From the NCBI RefSeq assembly GCF_050320075.1, contig NZ_CP190018.1: 64,000 nucleotides of DNA; one strand, written 5' to 3'. This document shows, piece by piece, positions 37,332 through 57,955 of this stretch; the stretch's first letter is position 1; every line of letters starts with the position of its first letter. A model generated the notes under the pieces. The model did no database searches, was not told where the DNA came from, and saw only the letters and a program-made list of their open reading frames with translations. The DNA is from Escherichia coli (GTDB taxonomy: Bacteria; Pseudomonadota; Gammaproteobacteria; Enterobacterales; Enterobacteriaceae). The position numbers and the translations under genes are program-made.

Positions 37332-37361
37332 ATCGCCTCCCATTAACTATTGCCAGCTACA

Positions 37362-37377
37362 AGCAATAATTGTGCCA
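37362..37377 (-). promoter_or_regulatory. Candidate sigma54 promoter for hypA
   Basis: Minus-strand reading TGGCAC-AATTA-TTGCT (GG-N10-GC), about 30 nt upstream of hypA start. Confidence 0.6.
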
Positions 37378-37490
37378 GTGTTGATTATCCCTGCGGTGAA
37401 TAATGTCGATGATGTCGAAATGACACGTCGACACGGCGACGAAATTCATCTTTATCTTAAAAATCTGTTTCATAACAATGAATTAAAAGT

Positions 37491-37506
37491 TGGCACAGAA
37501 AATGCT
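37491..37506 (+). promoter_or_regulatory. Candidate sigma54 promoter for hycA
   Basis: TGGCAC-AGAAA-ATGCT (GG-N10-GC), about 37 nt upstream of hycA ATG. Confidence 0.6.
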
Positions 37507-37542
37507 TAAAGCTGGCATCTCTGTTAAACGGGTAACCTGACA

Positions 37543-38004
37543 ATGACTATTTGGGAAATAAGCGAGAAAGCCGATTACATCGCACAGCGGCATCGTCGCC
37601 TACAGGACCAGTGGCACATCTACTGCAATTCGCTGGTTCAGGGGATCACGTTATCGAAAGCGCGCCTGCATCACGCCATGAGCTGCGCGCCGGACAAAGA
37701 ACTCTGTTTCGTCCTTTTTGAACATTTTCGCATTTACGTCACCCTGGCGGATGGCTTTAACAGCCACACCATCGAGTATTACGTCGAAACAAAAGATGGT
37801 GAAGACAAACAGCGGATTGCGCAGGCGCAACTGAGCATTGACGGCATGATTGATGGCAAGGTCAACATCCGCGATCGCGAACAGGTTCTGGAACACTATC
37901 TCGAAAAAATCGCTGGCGTTTACGACAGCTTATACACCGCCATTGAAAACAATGTGCCGGTGAATTTAAGCCAACTGGTAAAGGGACAAAGCCCGGCAGC
38001 ATGA
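37543..38004 (+). CDS. hycA: Formate hydrogenlyase regulatory protein HycA
   Basis: 153 aa, MTIWEISEKADYIAQRHRRLQ... Confidence 0.95.
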   Translation: MTIWEISEKADYIAQRHRRLQDQWHIYCNSLVQGITLSKARLHHAMSCAPDKELCFVLFEHFRIYVTLADGFNSHTIEYYVETKDGEDKQRIAQAQLSIDGMIDGKVNIRDREQVLEHYLEKIAGVYDSLYTAIENNVPVNLSQLVKGQSPAA

Positions 38005-53684: not shown

Positions 53685-54818
53685 CTACACCGGCAACGTT
53701 TTCAACAATCCAAACGCCTCTTTCATCCGATCCTCACTGACCACAAAGGCGCGAAGCTGGTCGGCATCATCAACACCGCGCGCCACCATTCCCTGGCGTT
53801 CGGTATTAATTTGCCAGCGTAAATCCTGACGCTGGGTTTCGCCTGCCAGATGCAGCGGTAATTCTGGCGTTTTGATTTTCACCAGCATCGCAGGGAGTTT
53901 CAGCGGCGTGTTATTGCCGAGAAGATTTTTTGCCAGCACCATCGCGCTAAGTTGAATCGGCTGGAGGAACGGCAATACCTGACCGTTAATTTCCGTGCAA
54001 TCGCCCAGCGCATAAATATCGGCATTACTGGTTTGCAGATAACTATCGACGCAAACGCCGCGATTAATCGTCAGCCCGGCGCGTCGTGCCAGGGCGGTTT
54101 CCGGGCGCAGTCCGGTGGCGGCAATTACCGCATCCACTTCGATGCTGCGCTGGCGGTCCAGCGTTGCCAGAATGCCAGAATCCGTTTTTTCCAGCCCCTG
54201 CAACTGAGATTTTAACAGCAGATGAACGCCAATCTCCGTCAACCGATGCTGCAAGCGGCTGCTTACTTCCGGTGGCATTAACGATGCCAGAATACTGGCA
54301 GCGTTGTCGATTAGCGTGACCGCTTTGCCTGCACGACAAAAATCCATCGCCAGTTCGCTACCAATCAAGCCACCGCCAACAATCAATACGCGTCGGGCAT
54401 CCCGCAGTTGCGTTTCACAGGCGCGATACTCTTGCTGACTATTTAATGTCAGCATTAACTCACGCCCAGGCACTGGCGGGACAAAGGCGCTGGCTCCGGT
54501 TGCCAGCACTAACTTGTCGTATTGCCACTGATTATTCTGACTTTTCACCACATGGGCTTCGGCATCGATATCCGTCACCCAGGTGTGCGGAAACAGGTGC
54601 AGATTAAACTGCTCGGCAAATTCACCCGCCGTCTGGCGGGTAAGGTCATCGGCACGTTGCCCCTGGCTGATAACATGGCTGAGATCCGGTTTGTTGTACT
54701 CATCCATGCTGTCGGCGGCAATCAGAGTTAATGGAATACTGGCGTCCTGTTTGCGAATATTTTTCACCAGTTGGCGGGCGGCGAAGCCCGAACCAATGAT
54801 CACAATGCCGTTGCTCAT
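53685..54818 (-). CDS. norW: NADH:flavorubredoxin reductase NorW
   Basis: 377 aa, FAD/NAD Rossmann GSGFAA and GGGLIG. Confidence 0.95.
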
Positions 54819-56254
54819 TTTGCCTCCGATGCCAGTTCGTCAAAGACGTCTTTGCCGAGAGAGCATTCCGGGCACAGGAAGTTATCCGGGACTTCACTCC
54901 ACGGCGTTCCTGGCGCAACGTCCTGCATTGGCTCGCCTTTTGCCGGATCGTAAATCCACTGGCAGACGCTGCACTGCATCCGTGGGCCGAGGTCAGCCGT
55001 CGTGTTGGCAGAGGTTTCTTCTTTAACCACCGTATTCACCGTGCTCTGCGGCAGCGGCGCGAGCGCCCACTGACGGGCGATTTCGCGACCGTGTTCACGG
55101 CATAACTCCAGAGCGTCCTGGTCCGGTCGCCATTTGGCTTTCAGGCTAAGCGACATTTCGAAACCTGCATCCTGCAGGCGTGTGGAAAGACGATCCACCG
55201 CACCGCCGCTCCAGCCGTGAGAGCCGAAAGCACTGGCGCGTTTGTTACGGAAGCGTAAACCAGTCATCTCCTCCACCAGCCCGGCGATTTTCGGCATCAT
55301 CACATTATTCATCGTAGAAGTGCCGACCAGCACGCCTTTTGAGCGGAAGACATTGGTCAGGATTTCGTTTTTATCGCTTCGGGCGACGTTGAAAATTTTC
55401 ACCGCCACGCGTGGGTCGGTTTCCGCAATACCCTGGGCGATAGCATCGGCCATCATGCGGGTATTATTCGACATGGTGTCGTAGAAAATGGTGATTCTGT
55501 CTTCCTGATAATCCGCCGCCCATTTCAGGTACAGCTCGACAATTTGCGTCGGGTTATCGCGCCATACCACGCCGTGAGAGGTCGCTATCATATCGACTGG
55601 TAAGTTAAAGCCCAGGATCTCGGTAATTTTCGGCGTTACCAGGCGGCTGAACGGCGTCAGGATATTGGCGTAGTAACGCTGGCACTGCTCGAAAAGCTCC
55701 GTCTGATCCACTTCATCGTTGAACAGATGCTCGTCGCAGTAGTGCTGACCGAAAGCATCGTTACTGAATAGCACCGCGTCGCCTGTCAGGTAAGTCATCA
55801 TGCTGTCCGGCCAGTGCAGCATTGGCGTTTCGACAAAAATGAGCTGTTTGCCGTTGCCGATATCCAGTGTGTCGCCAGTTTTCACCACATTAAAATTCCA
55901 CTCCGGATGATGGTGATGACCATTTATCGAGTCGATAGCGTTGGCAGTACAGTAAATCGGCGTATCGGGAATTTGCGCCATCAGTTCGGTCAGCGCCCCG
56001 GCGTGGTCCTCTTCAGCATGGTTAATCACGATGTAATCGATATCCGCCAGATCGATTTCATTACGCAGGTTCTGCACAAATTCGCGGCTGAATTTATGGT
56101 CAACGGTGTCGATCAGCACGTTTTTTTCTTCGCGGATGAGGTAGCTGTTGTAGCTGCTGCCGCGCAGCGTTTTATATTCCGTGCCGTGAAAATCACGCAC
56201 TTCCCAGTCACGTTGACCAACCCAATGAATGTTATTTTTCACCACAATAGACAT
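54815..56254 (-). CDS. norV: Anaerobic nitric oxide reductase flavorubredoxin NorV
   Basis: 479 aa, metallo-beta-lactamase-like + flavodoxin + C-terminal rubredoxin (CSVCQ...CPEC). Confidence 0.96.
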
Positions 56255-56301
56255 AGCAACCTCAATTTATTCAGCGTGTTCTAAAAAGATGTCTTGCTAA
56301 T

Positions 56302-56317
56302 TGCAGATTGCGTGCCA
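56302..56317 (-). promoter_or_regulatory. sigma54 promoter of norVW
   Basis: Minus-strand TGGCAC-GCAAT-CTGCA (GG-N10-GC) about 45 nt upstream of norV start. Confidence 0.7.
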
Positions 56318-56373
56318 GTTTTTTATCTGATTGTTTTTACTCTATAAATAAAATTATGCTCATTAATGAGTAG

Positions 56374-56429
56374 TCAAAATGACTATCAATCAAATGGTCG
56401 ATATGACAATATCTATAGTCAAATTGACA
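56374..56429. promoter_or_regulatory. Three NorR enhancer sites (GT-N7-AC)
   Basis: GTCAAAATGAC 56374-56384, GTCGATATGAC 56398-56408, GTCAAATTGAC 56419-56429 in the norR-norV intergenic region. Confidence 0.75.
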
Positions 56430-56440
56430 GTGAGGCAAAG

Positions 56441-57955
56441 ATGAGTTTTTCCGTTGATGTGCTGGCGAATATCGCCATCGAATTGCAGCGTGGGATTGGT
56501 CATCAGGATCGTTTTCAGCGCCTGATCACCACGCTGCGTCAGGTGCTGGAGTGTGATGCCTCTGCGTTGCTACGTTATGACTCGCGGCAGTTTATTCCGC
56601 TTGCCATCGACGGGCTGGCGAAGGATGTACTCGGTAGACGCTTTGCGCTGGAAGGGCATCCACGGCTGGAAGCGATTGCCCGCGCCGGGGACGTGGTGCG
56701 CTTTCCCGCAGACAGCGAATTGCCCGATCCCTATGACGGTTTGATTCCCGGGCAGGAGAGTCTGAAGGTTCACGCCTGCGTTGGTCTGCCATTGTTTGCC
56801 GGACAAAACCTGATCGGCGCATTGACGCTCGACGGGATGCAGCCCGATCAGTTCGATGTTTTCAGTGACGAAGAGTTACGGCTGATTGCCGCGCTGGCGG
56901 CGGGAGCGTTAAGCAATGCGTTGCTGATTGAACAACTGGAAAGTCAGAATATGCTGCCAGGCGATGCCGCGCCGTTTGAAGCAGTGAAACAGACGCAGAT
57001 GATCGGTCTGTCGCCAGGTATGACGCAATTGAAAAAAGAGATTGAGATTGTGGCGGCGTCCGATCTCAACGTCCTGATCAGCGGTGAGACGGGAACCGGT
57101 AAGGAGCTGGTGGCGAAAGCGATTCATGAAGCCTCGCCACGGGCGGTGAATCCGCTGGTCTATCTCAACTGTGCCGCACTGCCGGAAAGTGTGGCGGAAA
57201 GTGAACTGTTCGGGCATGTGAAAGGAGCGTTTACTGGCGCTATCAGTAACCGCAGCGGGAAGTTTGAAATGGCGGATAACGGCACGCTGTTTCTCGATGA
57301 GATCGGCGAGTTGTCGTTGGCATTGCAGGCCAAGCTGCTGCGGGTGTTGCAGTATGGCGATATTCAGCGCGTTGGCGATGACCGCAGTTTGCGGGTCGAT
57401 GTGCGCGTGCTGGCGGCGACTAACCGTGACTTACGCGAAGAGGTACTGGCAGGGCGATTTCGCGCTGACTTGTTCCACCGCCTGAGCGTGTTTCCACTTT
57501 CAGTGCCGCCGCTGCGTGAGCGGGGCGATGATGTCATTCTGCTGGCGGGGTATTTCTGCGAGCAGTGTCGTTTGCGGCTGGGGCTCTCCCGCGTGGTATT
57601 AAGTGCCGGAGCGCGAAATTTACTGCAACACTACAATTTTCCGGGGAACGTTCGTGAACTGGAACATGCTATTCATCGGGCGGTAGTGCTGGCGAGAGCA
57701 ACCCGCAGCGGCGATGAAGTGATTCTTGAGGCGCAACATTTTGCTTTTCCTGAGGTGACGTTGCCGCCGCCAGAAGTGGCGGCGGTGCCCGTTGTTAAGC
57801 AAAACCTGCGTGAAGCGACAGAAGCGTTCCTGCGTGAAACCATTCGTCAGGCGCTGGCGCAAAATCATCACAACTGGGCCGCCTGTGCGCGGATGCTGGA
57901 AACCGACGTCGCCAACCTGCATCGGCTGGCGAAACGTCTGGGGCTGAAGGATTAA
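56441..57955 (+). CDS. norR: NO-responsive sigma54-dependent activator NorR
   Basis: 504 aa from [18 protein letters not shown]; GAF domain, AAA+ GETGTGKE and GAFTGA, C-terminal HTH. Confidence 0.96.

What the first reader, a model, noticed from the sequence alone, without database searches (positions are those of the whole stretch)
56255..56440. norR-norVW control region reads as the textbook arrangement
Three GT-N7-AC NorR enhancer sites and a minus-strand sigma54 promoter (TGGCAC-N5-CTGCA) are all present, matching the established NorR-dependent NO detoxification circuit. The ORF-track start of norR at 56366 would place coding sequence over the enhancer sites, supporting the downstream ATG at 56441 as the true start.
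Basis: partly seen in the sequence, partly recalled or inferred. Interest (0 to 1): 0.15.

Follow-up and report, generated by a model that had tools for sequence, protein, structure and literature searches.

The report
Standard E. coli norR-norVW control region

Summary
Window 56255..56440 is exactly the spacer between norV (minus strand, ATG at 56254) and norR (plus strand, ATG at 56441).

- **Enhancer sites:** three palindromes lie at 56373-83, 56397-407 and 56418-28.
- **Promoter:** a minus-strand sigma54 -24/-12 element, TGGCACGCAATCTGCA, lies at 56317..56302.
- **Match to K-12:** the spacer plus 50 bp of each flanking gene (286 bp) differs from K-12 MG1655 at one base, 56360, which is outside every motif.
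- **Match to published reagents:** the 66-bp NorR-binding fragment used in the published biochemistry matches 56368..56433 exactly. The promoter equals sigma54 ChIP-seq site OS25.
- **Conservation:** across 79 enterobacterial species the three sites keep 24- and 21-bp spacing and sit 54-56 bp from an invariant TGGCAC.

The true norR start is 56441, not 56366. 56441 has a conserved GAGG Shine-Dalgarno. Codon periodicity begins there and is absent upstream. The 25-codon extension carries in-frame stops in 35 of 81 sequences and in 616 of 5,426 E. coli genomes. The curated NorR family model and the published residue numbering both fit the 504-aa protein.

Verdict: already known, low interest.

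The parts
53685..54818 (-). norW, NADH:flavorubredoxin reductase (377 aa), second gene of the regulated operon
   Evidence: ORF. NCBIfam equivalog NF003437 NorW scores 681.9 bits (cut-off 392). Pfam finds Pyr_redox_2 and Rbx_binding.
54815..56254 (-). norV, anaerobic NO reductase flavorubredoxin (479 aa, intact), first gene of the regulated operon
   Evidence: ORF. NCBIfam equivalog NF003954 scores 1046.6 bits over residues 1-479. Pfam finds metallo-beta-lactamase/ODP, flavodoxin and rubredoxin domains. There are 3 substitutions relative to K-12.
56255..56291 (-). Predicted norV 5' untranslated leader (about 37 nt). The Shine-Dalgarno GAGG is the reverse complement of CCTC at 56260-56263. The predicted transcription start is about 56290-56291, next to the conserved block 56288-56292.
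   Evidence: The -12 GC is at 56304/56303. Bonocora 2015 Table 1 lists site OS25 with distance 37 to norV. The block is conserved. The exact +1 position is inferred and was not measured here.
56302..56317 (-). sigma54 promoter of norVW: TGGCAC (-24) N5 CTGCA (-12), read on the minus strand
   Evidence: Exact match (expected 0.12 per 64 kb). Identical to K-12. Identical to sigma54 ChIP-seq motif OS25 CTGGCACGCAATCTGCA, flagged as experimentally confirmed in EcoCyc. TGGCAC is present in 75 of 79 aligned species and TGGCAT in the other 4.
56319..56338 (.). Conserved A/T-rich block just upstream of the -24 element (TAAAAA on the norV sense strand). It is a candidate for the IHF-bent region.
   Evidence: Conservation profile. 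Tucker 2010 states that IHF binds between the norV start site and the NorR sites. The exact IHF footprint was not available, so the assignment is inferred.
56339..56372 (.). Non-conserved spacer of conserved length between promoter and enhancer. It contains the single difference from K-12 (56360, T versus C) and the spurious in-frame ATG at 56366.
   Evidence: Information content is near 0-3 of 9. The gap between the -24 hexamer and site 1 is 54-56 bp in 76 of 79 species. The SNP is shown.
56373..56383 (.). NorR enhancer site 1 (GTCAAAATGAC), the copy nearest the norV promoter
   Evidence: It lies inside the published 21-bp NorR1 oligonucleotide, which matches 56367-56387 exactly. GTC/GAC arms are conserved at -68 from the norR ATG in 77 of 79 species.
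56397..56407 (.). NorR enhancer site 2 (GTCGATATGAC)
   Evidence: It lies inside the published 66-bp NorR123 fragment, which matches 56368-56433 exactly. It is 24 bp from site 1 in 77 of 77 species.
56418..56428 (.). NorR enhancer site 3 (GTCAAATTGAC), 12 nt upstream of the norR ATG
   Evidence: It lies inside the 66-bp NorR123 fragment. It is 21 bp from site 2 in 76 of 77 species.
56432..56435 (+). norR Shine-Dalgarno GAGG, 5 nt before the ATG
   Evidence: GAGG is at -9..-6 in 71 of 78 species. The anti-SD duplex is -6.5 kcal/mol, among the strongest 6.6% of all plus-strand ATGs in the window, against +1.6 kcal/mol for ATG 56366.
56441..57955 (+). norR, NO-sensing sigma54 enhancer-binding protein (504 aa: GAF, AAA+, C-terminal HTH)
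   Evidence: NCBIfam equivalog NF003451 NorR scores 821.3 bits, with residues 2-503 aligned to model positions 3-511. Pfam finds GAF, Sigma54_activat and AAA_lid_14. GAFTGA is at 262-267 and Walker A at 215. RefSeq annotates the same start in K-12 and four other strains.

Best explanation
This is the canonical divergent norR / norVW control region of E. coli. NorR (504 aa, translated from ATG 56441) binds as dimers to the three palindromes at 56373-56428 and assembles on this DNA into a hexameric AAA+ ring. Sigma54-RNA polymerase sits as a closed complex on the minus-strand -24/-12 element at 56317..56302. IHF-assisted bending of the roughly 55-bp spacer brings the two together. [quoted passage not shown] ATP hydrolysis then drives open-complex formation, and norVW (flavorubredoxin NO reductase and its NADH reductase) is transcribed from about 56290-56291. 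The same three sites lie directly over norR's own 5' region, which fits the reported negative autoregulation of norR. The ATG at 56366 is not a start codon. The frame stays open upstream of 56441 only because the three sites are spaced by multiples of three (24 and 21 bp) and contain no stop codon in that frame.

Shown here: presence, position, identity to K-12 and to the published reagents, cross-species conservation of all DNA elements, and sequence-based evidence for the start codon. Taken from the literature: NorR binding, the requirement for all three sites, hexamer formation, NO sensing, IHF binding and sigma54 occupancy. Inferred: the exact +1 position, the IHF position and the autoregulation mechanism.
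For: - **Identity:** the window is E. coli, and the region is present in 5,425 of 5,426 complete genomes. It differs from K-12 MG1655 at 1 of 286 bases, outside all motifs.
- **Published reagents:** the 66-bp NorR123 and 21-bp NorR1 oligonucleotides match exactly. PMC2831303 reports that mutating any one site to GG-N7-CC abolishes norV-lacZ induction.
- **Specificity:** in gSELEX, the only major NorR peak is at the norR/norV spacer; the paper's figure legend lists two minor peaks elsewhere (PMC8249747).
- **Promoter:** sigma54 ChIP-seq site OS25 has the identical motif and distance 37 to norV (PMC4591121).
- **Conservation:** in 79 species there are three GTC-N5-GAC sites in 77, spacing of 24 bp (77/77) and 21 bp (76/77), a 54-56 bp gap to the -24 hexamer in 76, and a strictly conserved -24 hexamer, TGGCAC in 75 of 79 and TGGCAT in 4.
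- **Proteins:** NorR, NorV and NorW all score above the NCBIfam equivalog cut-offs. NorR has GAFTGA and Walker A, and R75, D96, D99, C113 and D131 are present.
- **Start codon, sequence features:** GAGG is present in 71 of 78 species. Anti-SD pairing is -6.5 versus +1.6 kcal/mol. Information content by codon position is 1.71/1.83/0.97 after 56441 against 1.25/1.30/1.31 in the extension.
- **Start codon, extension not conserved:** only 19 of 81 sequences have a start codon at -75 with an open frame, and 35 of 81 have an in-frame stop. TAA at -51 occurs in 616 of 5,426 E. coli genomes, including the type strain.
- **Start codon, databases:** published numbering F264/G266 in GAFTGA fits only the 504-aa form. 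The 529-aa sequence is absent from about 15 billion proteins, while the 504-aa form is on 145 contigs.
Against: Nothing contradicts it, but there are gaps.
- No transcription-start or translation-initiation data for norR could be retrieved. The Cappable-seq supplement had no searchable positions, and Tucker 2004, Hutchings 2002 and Busch 2004 are not held.
- No plus-strand sigma70-like promoter for norR passed the simple scan, so how norR itself is transcribed is not established here.
- The Pfam HTH_8 match at the C-terminus is below threshold (E = 0.04, 14.1 bits against a cut-off of 22).
- The IHF site could not be placed by consensus.
- All binding and activation steps are taken from work on K-12, not on this strain. 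Its NorR differs from K-12 at 6 residues.
Confidence: 0.96

Rival explanations
1. norR is translated from ATG 56366, giving a 529-aa NorR whose first 25 residues are encoded by the enhancer sites themselves. This could be the sole start or a minor second isoform in strains where the frame is open.
For: The frame is open from 56366 in the window and in K-12. The window's allele of the 31-mer around -51 is in 3,758 of 5,426 E. coli genomes. An ATG or GTG sits at -75 in 24 of 78 other species.
Against: There is no Shine-Dalgarno (duplex +1.6 kcal/mol; 99% of the window's plus-strand ATGs have a stronger upstream anti-SD pairing). There is no codon periodicity in the extension. In-frame stops occur in 35 of 81 sequences and in 616 E. 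coli genomes, including the type strain. E. albertii has ATT at -75. The NorR equivalog model begins at residue 2 of the short form. The protein studied in the literature uses the short-form numbering. RefSeq annotates the short form in every strain inspected. The long form is absent from the protein collection. The apparent peptide conservation (SQND, RYD, QID) is simply the palindromes read in frame.
Confidence: 0.02
2. The three GT-N7-AC motifs and the -24/-12 match are chance occurrences in an A/T-rich spacer and have no regulatory role.
For: GT-N7-AC on its own occurs at the chance rate in the window: 203 observed against 194.5 expected. A second exact TGGCAC-N5-YTGCA match exists inside a coding region at 37612.
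Against: About 0.034 extended palindromes are expected in 186 bp and three are observed. The arms and the 24/21-bp spacing are conserved in 77 of 79 species while the surrounding sequence drifts. The sequence matches footprinted and mutationally tested DNA exactly. Sigma54 occupies the site in ChIP-seq.
Confidence: 0.005
3. The control region is present but non-functional in this strain, a decayed copy like the norV deletion alleles known in some enterohaemorrhagic E. coli.
For: Natural loss variants exist. Isolate AF3 has a 45-bp deletion that fuses the three sites into one. NorR here differs from K-12 at 6 residues and NorV at 3.
Against: norV is full length (479 aa), with the equivalog match spanning residues 1-479. 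norR and norW are intact and score above their equivalog cut-offs. Every DNA element is identical to K-12. The catalytic and sensing motifs are present. None of the substitutions falls in GAFTGA, Walker A or the five iron-centre residues checked.
Confidence: 0.015

Closest known systems
E. coli K-12 norR-norVW intergenic region (NorR enhancer sites 1-3 plus the sigma54 promoter norVp; Tucker et al. 2004 and 2010; Gardner et al. 2003)
   Same: Same genes, same 186-bp spacer, the same three palindromes at the same spacing, the same -24/-12 sequence, and the same norR start and Shine-Dalgarno. 285 of 286 bases are identical, and the published oligonucleotides match exactly.
   Different: One base differs: 56360 is T here and C in K-12, in the non-conserved spacer. 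The flanking proteins carry 6 (NorR) and 3 (NorV) substitutions. No functional difference is expected.
norR-norV control regions of other Enterobacteriaceae (Salmonella, Citrobacter, Klebsiella, Enterobacter, Kosakonia and others)
   Same: Three GTC-N5-GAC sites at -68, -44 and -23 from the norR ATG, 24/21-bp spacing, a 54-56 bp gap to a strictly conserved -24 hexamer (TGGCAC in 75 of 79, TGGCAT in 4), and a GAGG Shine-Dalgarno.
   Different: In 40 of 79 species (Enterobacter, Klebsiella, Raoultella, Kosakonia and others) the -12 pentamer is TTGAT. The window and 32 species of the Escherichia/Citrobacter/Salmonella/Kluyvera group have CTGCA. The commonest half-site core elsewhere is GTCAATATGAC, where the window's site 2 has GTCGATATGAC.
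FhlA-dependent sigma54 control region between hycA and hypA, present in the same window around 37344-37542
   Same: Also a divergent spacer with sigma54 promoters driven by a GAF-AAA+-HTH enhancer-binding protein. It contains GTCGAAATGAC at 37414, which fits the NorR-type GTC-N5-GAC palindrome. The promoters match OS27 and OS28 of Bonocora 2015, the hypA motif exactly and the hycA motif with one base different.
   Different: It has a different activator (FhlA, formate-responsive), a different site arrangement, and two sigma54 promoters rather than one. NorR gSELEX gives no peak there.

Membership tests
NorR-dependent sigma54 promoter region (norVp type) | A -24 GG / -12 GC sigma54 promoter element correctly oriented upstream of the regulated gene | tested here: met
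   TGGCACGCAATCTGCA lies at 56317..56302 on the norV strand. The -12 GC is 49-50 nt upstream of the norV ATG. It is identical to ChIP-seq site OS25.
NorR-dependent sigma54 promoter region (norVp type) | Three upstream inverted repeats with core GT-N7-AC that bind NorR | tested here: met
   The sequences are present at 56373-83, 56397-407 and 56418-28. They match the footprint-defined 66-bp fragment exactly. Binding itself was not tested here and is taken from PMC2831303.
NorR-dependent sigma54 promoter region (norVp type) | Divergently transcribed norR adjacent to the target operon | tested here: met
   norR at 56441..57955 (+) and norVW at 56254..53685 (-).
NorR-dependent sigma54 promoter region (norVp type) | IHF site between the promoter and the enhancers | tested here: inconclusive
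   A conserved A/T-rich block lies at 56319-56338, but I could place no clear WATCAA-N4-TTR match by eye, and the original footprint paper is not held. The literature states that IHF binds in this interval.
NorR-dependent sigma54 promoter region (norVp type) | NO-, NorR- and RpoN-dependent induction of norVW | not testable with these tools
   This requires a reporter or expression assay in this strain. It has been shown for K-12 (PMC2831303) and for Salmonella (PMC3844500).
NorR (bacterial enhancer-binding protein, GAF-AAA+-HTH) | Scores above the curated equivalog threshold over its full length | tested here: met
   NF003451 scores 821.3 bits against a cut-off of 476, with residues 2-503 aligned to model positions 3-511.
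NorR (bacterial enhancer-binding protein, GAF-AAA+-HTH) | N-terminal GAF domain with the iron-centre residues (R75, D96, D99, C113, D131; the residue list is recalled from Tucker et al. 2008) | tested here: met
   Pfam GAF E = 1.2e-13. All five positions carry the expected residue in the 504-aa numbering.
NorR (bacterial enhancer-binding protein, GAF-AAA+-HTH) | Sigma54-interaction AAA+ domain with the GAFTGA loop and Walker A | tested here: met
   Sigma54_activat E = 7.9e-69. GAFTGA is at 262-267 and GETGTGKE at 215.
NorR (bacterial enhancer-binding protein, GAF-AAA+-HTH) | C-terminal Fis-type helix-turn-helix | tested here: inconclusive
   Pfam HTH_8 gives only E = 0.04 and 14.1 bits against a cut-off of 22. 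However, the NorR equivalog model aligns through residue 503.

The most novel reading that the evidence does not exclude
In the roughly 70% of E. coli strains where the frame is open (this window included), ATG 56366 might be used at a low level to make a 529-aa NorR isoform. Its 25-residue N-terminal tail would be encoded by the enhancer sites themselves ([25 protein letters not shown]), placing a tail in front of the NO-sensing GAF domain. The sequence evidence argues strongly against this, but no direct initiation data were available to exclude it.
Probability: 0.02. Interest if true: 0.3.

Novelty: already known. Interest (0 to 1): 0.05.

Why it matters
It matters only as a correct annotation. 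The window carries an intact, K-12-like NO-detoxification switch, and norR should be annotated from 56441 (504 aa), not from the longest ORF at 56366. The case also shows how a mechanical longest-ORF call can run over a regulatory region: the NorR sites are spaced in multiples of three and contain no stop codon in the norR frame. The cross-species survey adds a modest quantitative point, namely how rigidly the site spacing and the enhancer-to-promoter distance are conserved. It changes no existing model.

Tried and rejected
- **Original papers:** I tried to read the footprinting and autoregulation papers (Tucker 2004 PMC516610, Hutchings 2002 PMC135257, Busch 2004 PMC529094). None is held.
- **norR/norV transcript starts:** I searched the Cappable-seq supplement of Ettwiller 2016 by coordinate prefixes in both K-12 coordinate versions and found no hits in the stored text.
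- **Autoregulation statement:** I searched the library for a statement on norR autoregulation or promoter. The hits were irrelevant, and two NO-sensor and review papers give no norR promoter.
- **Promoter scan:** the sigma70 scan of 56100-56600 found one weak minus-strand hit at the chance level and none on the norR strand. I considered TGnCAATAT (56404-12) and TATAGT (56414-19) as possible norR -10 elements. Both are only partly conserved, so I do not claim them.
- **Rfam:** a scan of 56100-56600 at E up to 1 found nothing, so no known RNA element is present.
- **Strict promoter pattern:** my first strict sigma54 regular expression missed half the species. The alignment showed that these carry TTGAT at -12 and have not lost the promoter.
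- **Fourth palindrome:** I considered GTCACGTTGAC at 56207-17 as an extra NorR site and rejected it. It lies inside norV codons for G-Q-R-D, downstream of the promoter, and is kept in only 25 of 78 species.

Full report
**What is there**

Window 56255..56440 is exactly the 186-bp spacer between two divergent genes. On the minus strand an ORF of 479 aa begins at 56254 and is followed by one of 377 aa. On the plus strand a long ORF ends at 57955.
- NCBIfam equivalog models identify the three proteins, all far above the curated cut-offs: NorV flavorubredoxin (1046.6 bits), NorW reductase (681.9 bits) and NorR (821.3 bits).
- Pfam gives the expected domains. NorR has GAF, Sigma54_activat and AAA_lid. 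NorV has metallo-beta-lactamase/ODP, flavodoxin and rubredoxin. NorW has Pyr_redox_2 and Rbx_binding.
- The window is E. coli. A 386-bp query around the spacer hits 5,425 of 5,426 complete genomes, one of them at 100% identity.

**Checking the observation**

The three GT-N7-AC motifs are GTCAAAATGAC (56373-83), GTCGATATGAC (56397-407) and GTCAAATTGAC (56418-28). They are the only three in the spacer.

The minus-strand element TGGCACGCAATCTGCA occupies 56317..56302. The mechanical longest ORF does start at ATG 56366.

One caveat concerns chance. GT-N7-AC by itself is as common as expected in the window (203 found, 194.5 expected), so it carries little information. What is improbable is the extended palindrome GTC-N5-GAC. 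It is expected 11.7 times per 64 kb, or about 0.034 times per 186 bp, yet it occurs three times within 56 bp. The full -24/-12 pattern is expected 0.12 times per 64 kb.

The spacer plus 50 bp of each flanking gene differs from MG1655 at a single base. Position 56360 is T here and C in K-12, and it lies between the promoter and the enhancers, outside every motif.

Two oligonucleotides used by Tucker et al. 2010 match the window exactly. The 66-bp "NorR123" fragment was defined from earlier footprints as the minimal DNA carrying the three sites, and it matches 56368..56433. The 21-bp "NorR1" fragment matches 56367..56387. Site 1 is therefore the copy nearest norV.

The literature provides the functional evidence:
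- Changing any one site to GG-N7-CC abolishes norV-lacZ induction, and enhancer DNA drives NorR oligomerisation and ATPase activity (PMC2831303).
- In genomic SELEX, the only major NorR peak is at the norR/norV spacer; the paper's figure legend lists two minor peaks elsewhere (PMC8249747).
- Sigma54 ChIP-seq lists site OS25 with the identical 17-mer CTGGCACGCAATCTGCA and a distance of 37 to norV, flagged as experimentally confirmed in EcoCyc (PMC4591121).

That distance places the predicted norV transcription start at about window 56290-56291. A conserved block lies next to it at 56288-56292. The exact +1 is my inference.

**Conservation elsewhere**

A scan of one genome per species returned 80 NorR loci with 78-99% protein identity.
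- In 77 of 79 usable loci, three GTC-N5-GAC palindromes lie within 90 nt of the norR ATG, at -68, -44 and -23.
- The spacing is 24 bp in 77 of 77 and 21 bp in 76 of 77.
- The gap between the -24 hexamer and site 1 is 54-56 bp in 76 of 79.
- The whole spacer is 179-192 bp long.
- The per-column conservation profile peaks on the palindrome arms, the -24 TGGCAC (TGGCAC in 75 of 79 sequences, TGGCAT in 4), an A/T-rich block just upstream of it, the two Shine-Dalgarno sequences and the start codons. The roughly 34 bp from 56339 to 56372 are unconserved in sequence but conserved in length.

This is the signature of a phased enhancer-promoter unit. It agrees with the published model of IHF-assisted looping.

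**The norR start codon**

Independent evidence supports 56441.

(i) GAGG sits 5 nt upstream of 56441 and is at that position in 71 of 78 species. Predicted pairing to the anti-Shine-Dalgarno is -6.5 kcal/mol, among the strongest 6.6% of all plus-strand ATGs in the window. For 56366 it is +1.6 kcal/mol, which means no pairing.

(ii) Across 75 sequences in register, information content by codon position is 1.71/1.83/0.97 in the first 150 nt after 56441, which is the coding signature. In the 75-nt extension it is flat at 1.25/1.30/1.31, and 0.78/0.82/0.99 once the palindromes and Shine-Dalgarno are excluded.

(iii) Only 19 of 81 sequences have a start codon at -75 with an open frame, and 35 of 81 have an in-frame stop within the 25 codons. 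Within E. coli itself, a TCA to TAA change at -51 is present in 616 of 5,426 complete genomes, including the type strain ATCC 11775. The window's allele is in 3,758.

(iv) The NorR equivalog model aligns from its position 3 to residue 2 of the 504-aa protein.

(v) Published residue numbers (F264 and G266 in GAFTGA; PMC2941729) fit the 504-aa form exactly. The five iron-centre residues also fit; I recalled that list from Tucker et al. 2008.

(vi) RefSeq annotates the short form in K-12 and four other strains. The exact 529-aa sequence is absent from a collection of about 15 billion proteins, while the exact 504-aa form is on 145 contigs.

The frame stays open in this strain for a simple reason. 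The sites are 24 and 21 bp apart, both multiples of three, so each palindrome is read as a harmless S-Q-N-D-like tetrapeptide.

I could not retrieve direct initiation or transcript-start data for norR. The long form is therefore excluded by strong inference, not by measurement.

**How it works**

- *Shown here:* all cis elements and all three genes are intact and K-12-like.
- *From the literature:* NorR binds the three sites and assembles into a hexamer on this DNA. Sigma54-RNA polymerase forms a closed complex at -24/-12, and IHF bends the intervening DNA. NO binding to the GAF-domain iron releases the AAA+ domain, whose ATP hydrolysis opens the promoter so that norVW is transcribed.
- *Inferred:* NorR bound 12 nt from its own start codon hinders norR transcription. 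Negative autoregulation was reported by Hutchings et al. 2002, which I cite from memory because the paper is not held. Where norR's own promoter lies remains open. No plus-strand sigma70 match passed the scan, and two weak -10 candidates inside the enhancer are only partly conserved.

**Rivals**

- A 529-aa NorR from 56366 is very unlikely, for the reasons above.
- Chance motifs are excluded by conservation and by the published biochemistry.
- A decayed, non-functional copy is unlikely, because every element and every motif checked is intact.

**Verdict**

The feature is the already-known norR-norVW control region in its common form. Interest is low, and the practical outcome is the correct norR start at 56441. 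The side observations are listed separately:
- a natural 45-bp enhancer-collapse allele in isolate AF3;
- a clade-specific TTGAT -12 element;
- a coding-driven fourth palindrome inside norV;
- a sigma54-like match inside the hycA-sized ORF;
- a NorR-like palindrome in the hyc-hyp spacer.

Noticed in passing
L082 (E. coli isolate AF3, NZ_OZ547117.1), locus 401-541; corresponds to window 56384-56428: A natural 45-bp deletion, exactly the site 1 to site 3 distance, shortens the spacer to 141 bp. It fuses the three NorR palindromes into a single GTCAAAATGAC directly followed by the norR Shine-Dalgarno. Because all three sites are required in K-12, this blood isolate is predicted to be unable to induce norVW. 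It could also be an assembly artefact. It was the only hit with less than 100% coverage among the 30 evenly spaced rows shown, and it ranked last of them.
   Followed up: partly
window 56302-56306, compared with L019, L024, L027, L029, L032, L034, L036-L039, L041-L044, L046-L052, L057, L059-L069, L071-L073 and L075-L081: The -12 element of the norV sigma54 promoter is CTGCA in the window and in 32 species (Escherichia, Citrobacter, Salmonella, Kluyvera). It is TTGAT, with GA in place of the consensus GC, in 40 species (Enterobacter, Klebsiella, Raoultella, Kosakonia and others). The -24 TGGCAC and all spacings stay fixed.
   Followed up: partly
window 56390-56392: The codon TCA at -51 from the norR ATG is TAA in 616 of 5,426 complete E. 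coli genomes, including the type strain ATCC 11775, and in E. albertii, Escherichia sp. E1V33 and E. coli SCPM-O-B-8794. About 1,050 further genomes carry other variants of the surrounding 31-mer, for example AF10 with C to T at 56387.
   Followed up: yes
window 56207-56217: A fourth GTC-N5-GAC palindrome (GTCACGTTGAC) lies inside norV, at the codons for G-Q-R-D of the conserved N-terminus and downstream of the promoter. It is kept in only 25 of 78 species although the protein motif is conserved. It therefore looks like a by-product of codon choice and not a NorR site.
   Followed up: partly
window 37612-37627 (+): A second exact TGGCAC-N5-YTGCA match (TGGCACATCTACTGCA) lies about 70 nt inside the 153-aa ORF 37543..38004 (the size and position of hycA), in the sense orientation. 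This 16-mer does not appear in the main text of the sigma54 ChIP-seq paper, so its occupancy is unknown.
   Followed up: partly
window 37372-37506: The hypA-hycA spacer carries the two known FhlA-dependent sigma54 promoters. CTGGCACAATTATTGCT is on the minus strand at 37388..37372. TTGGCACAGAAAATGCT is at 37490-37506, one base different from the K-12 sequence in Bonocora 2015. The spacer also holds an upstream palindrome, GTCGAAATGAC at 37414-37424, that fits the NorR-type GTC-N5-GAC pattern. NorR gSELEX nevertheless shows no peak there.
   Followed up: no
L007-L059 and others, position -30 relative to the norR ATG (window equivalent 56411-56413, ATC): 48 of 78 non-window species have an in-frame ATG 10 codons upstream of the conserved norR start, between sites 2 and 3. 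It has no Shine-Dalgarno and is ATC in the window and five other loci. It may reflect a conserved TATG (a possible norR -10-like element) and not a start codon.
   Followed up: partly
window 55814-56284 (+): A 156-aa GTG ORF lies antisense to the 5' end of norV and runs into the spacer. Nothing supports it, and it appears to be a mechanical antisense ORF.
   Followed up: no
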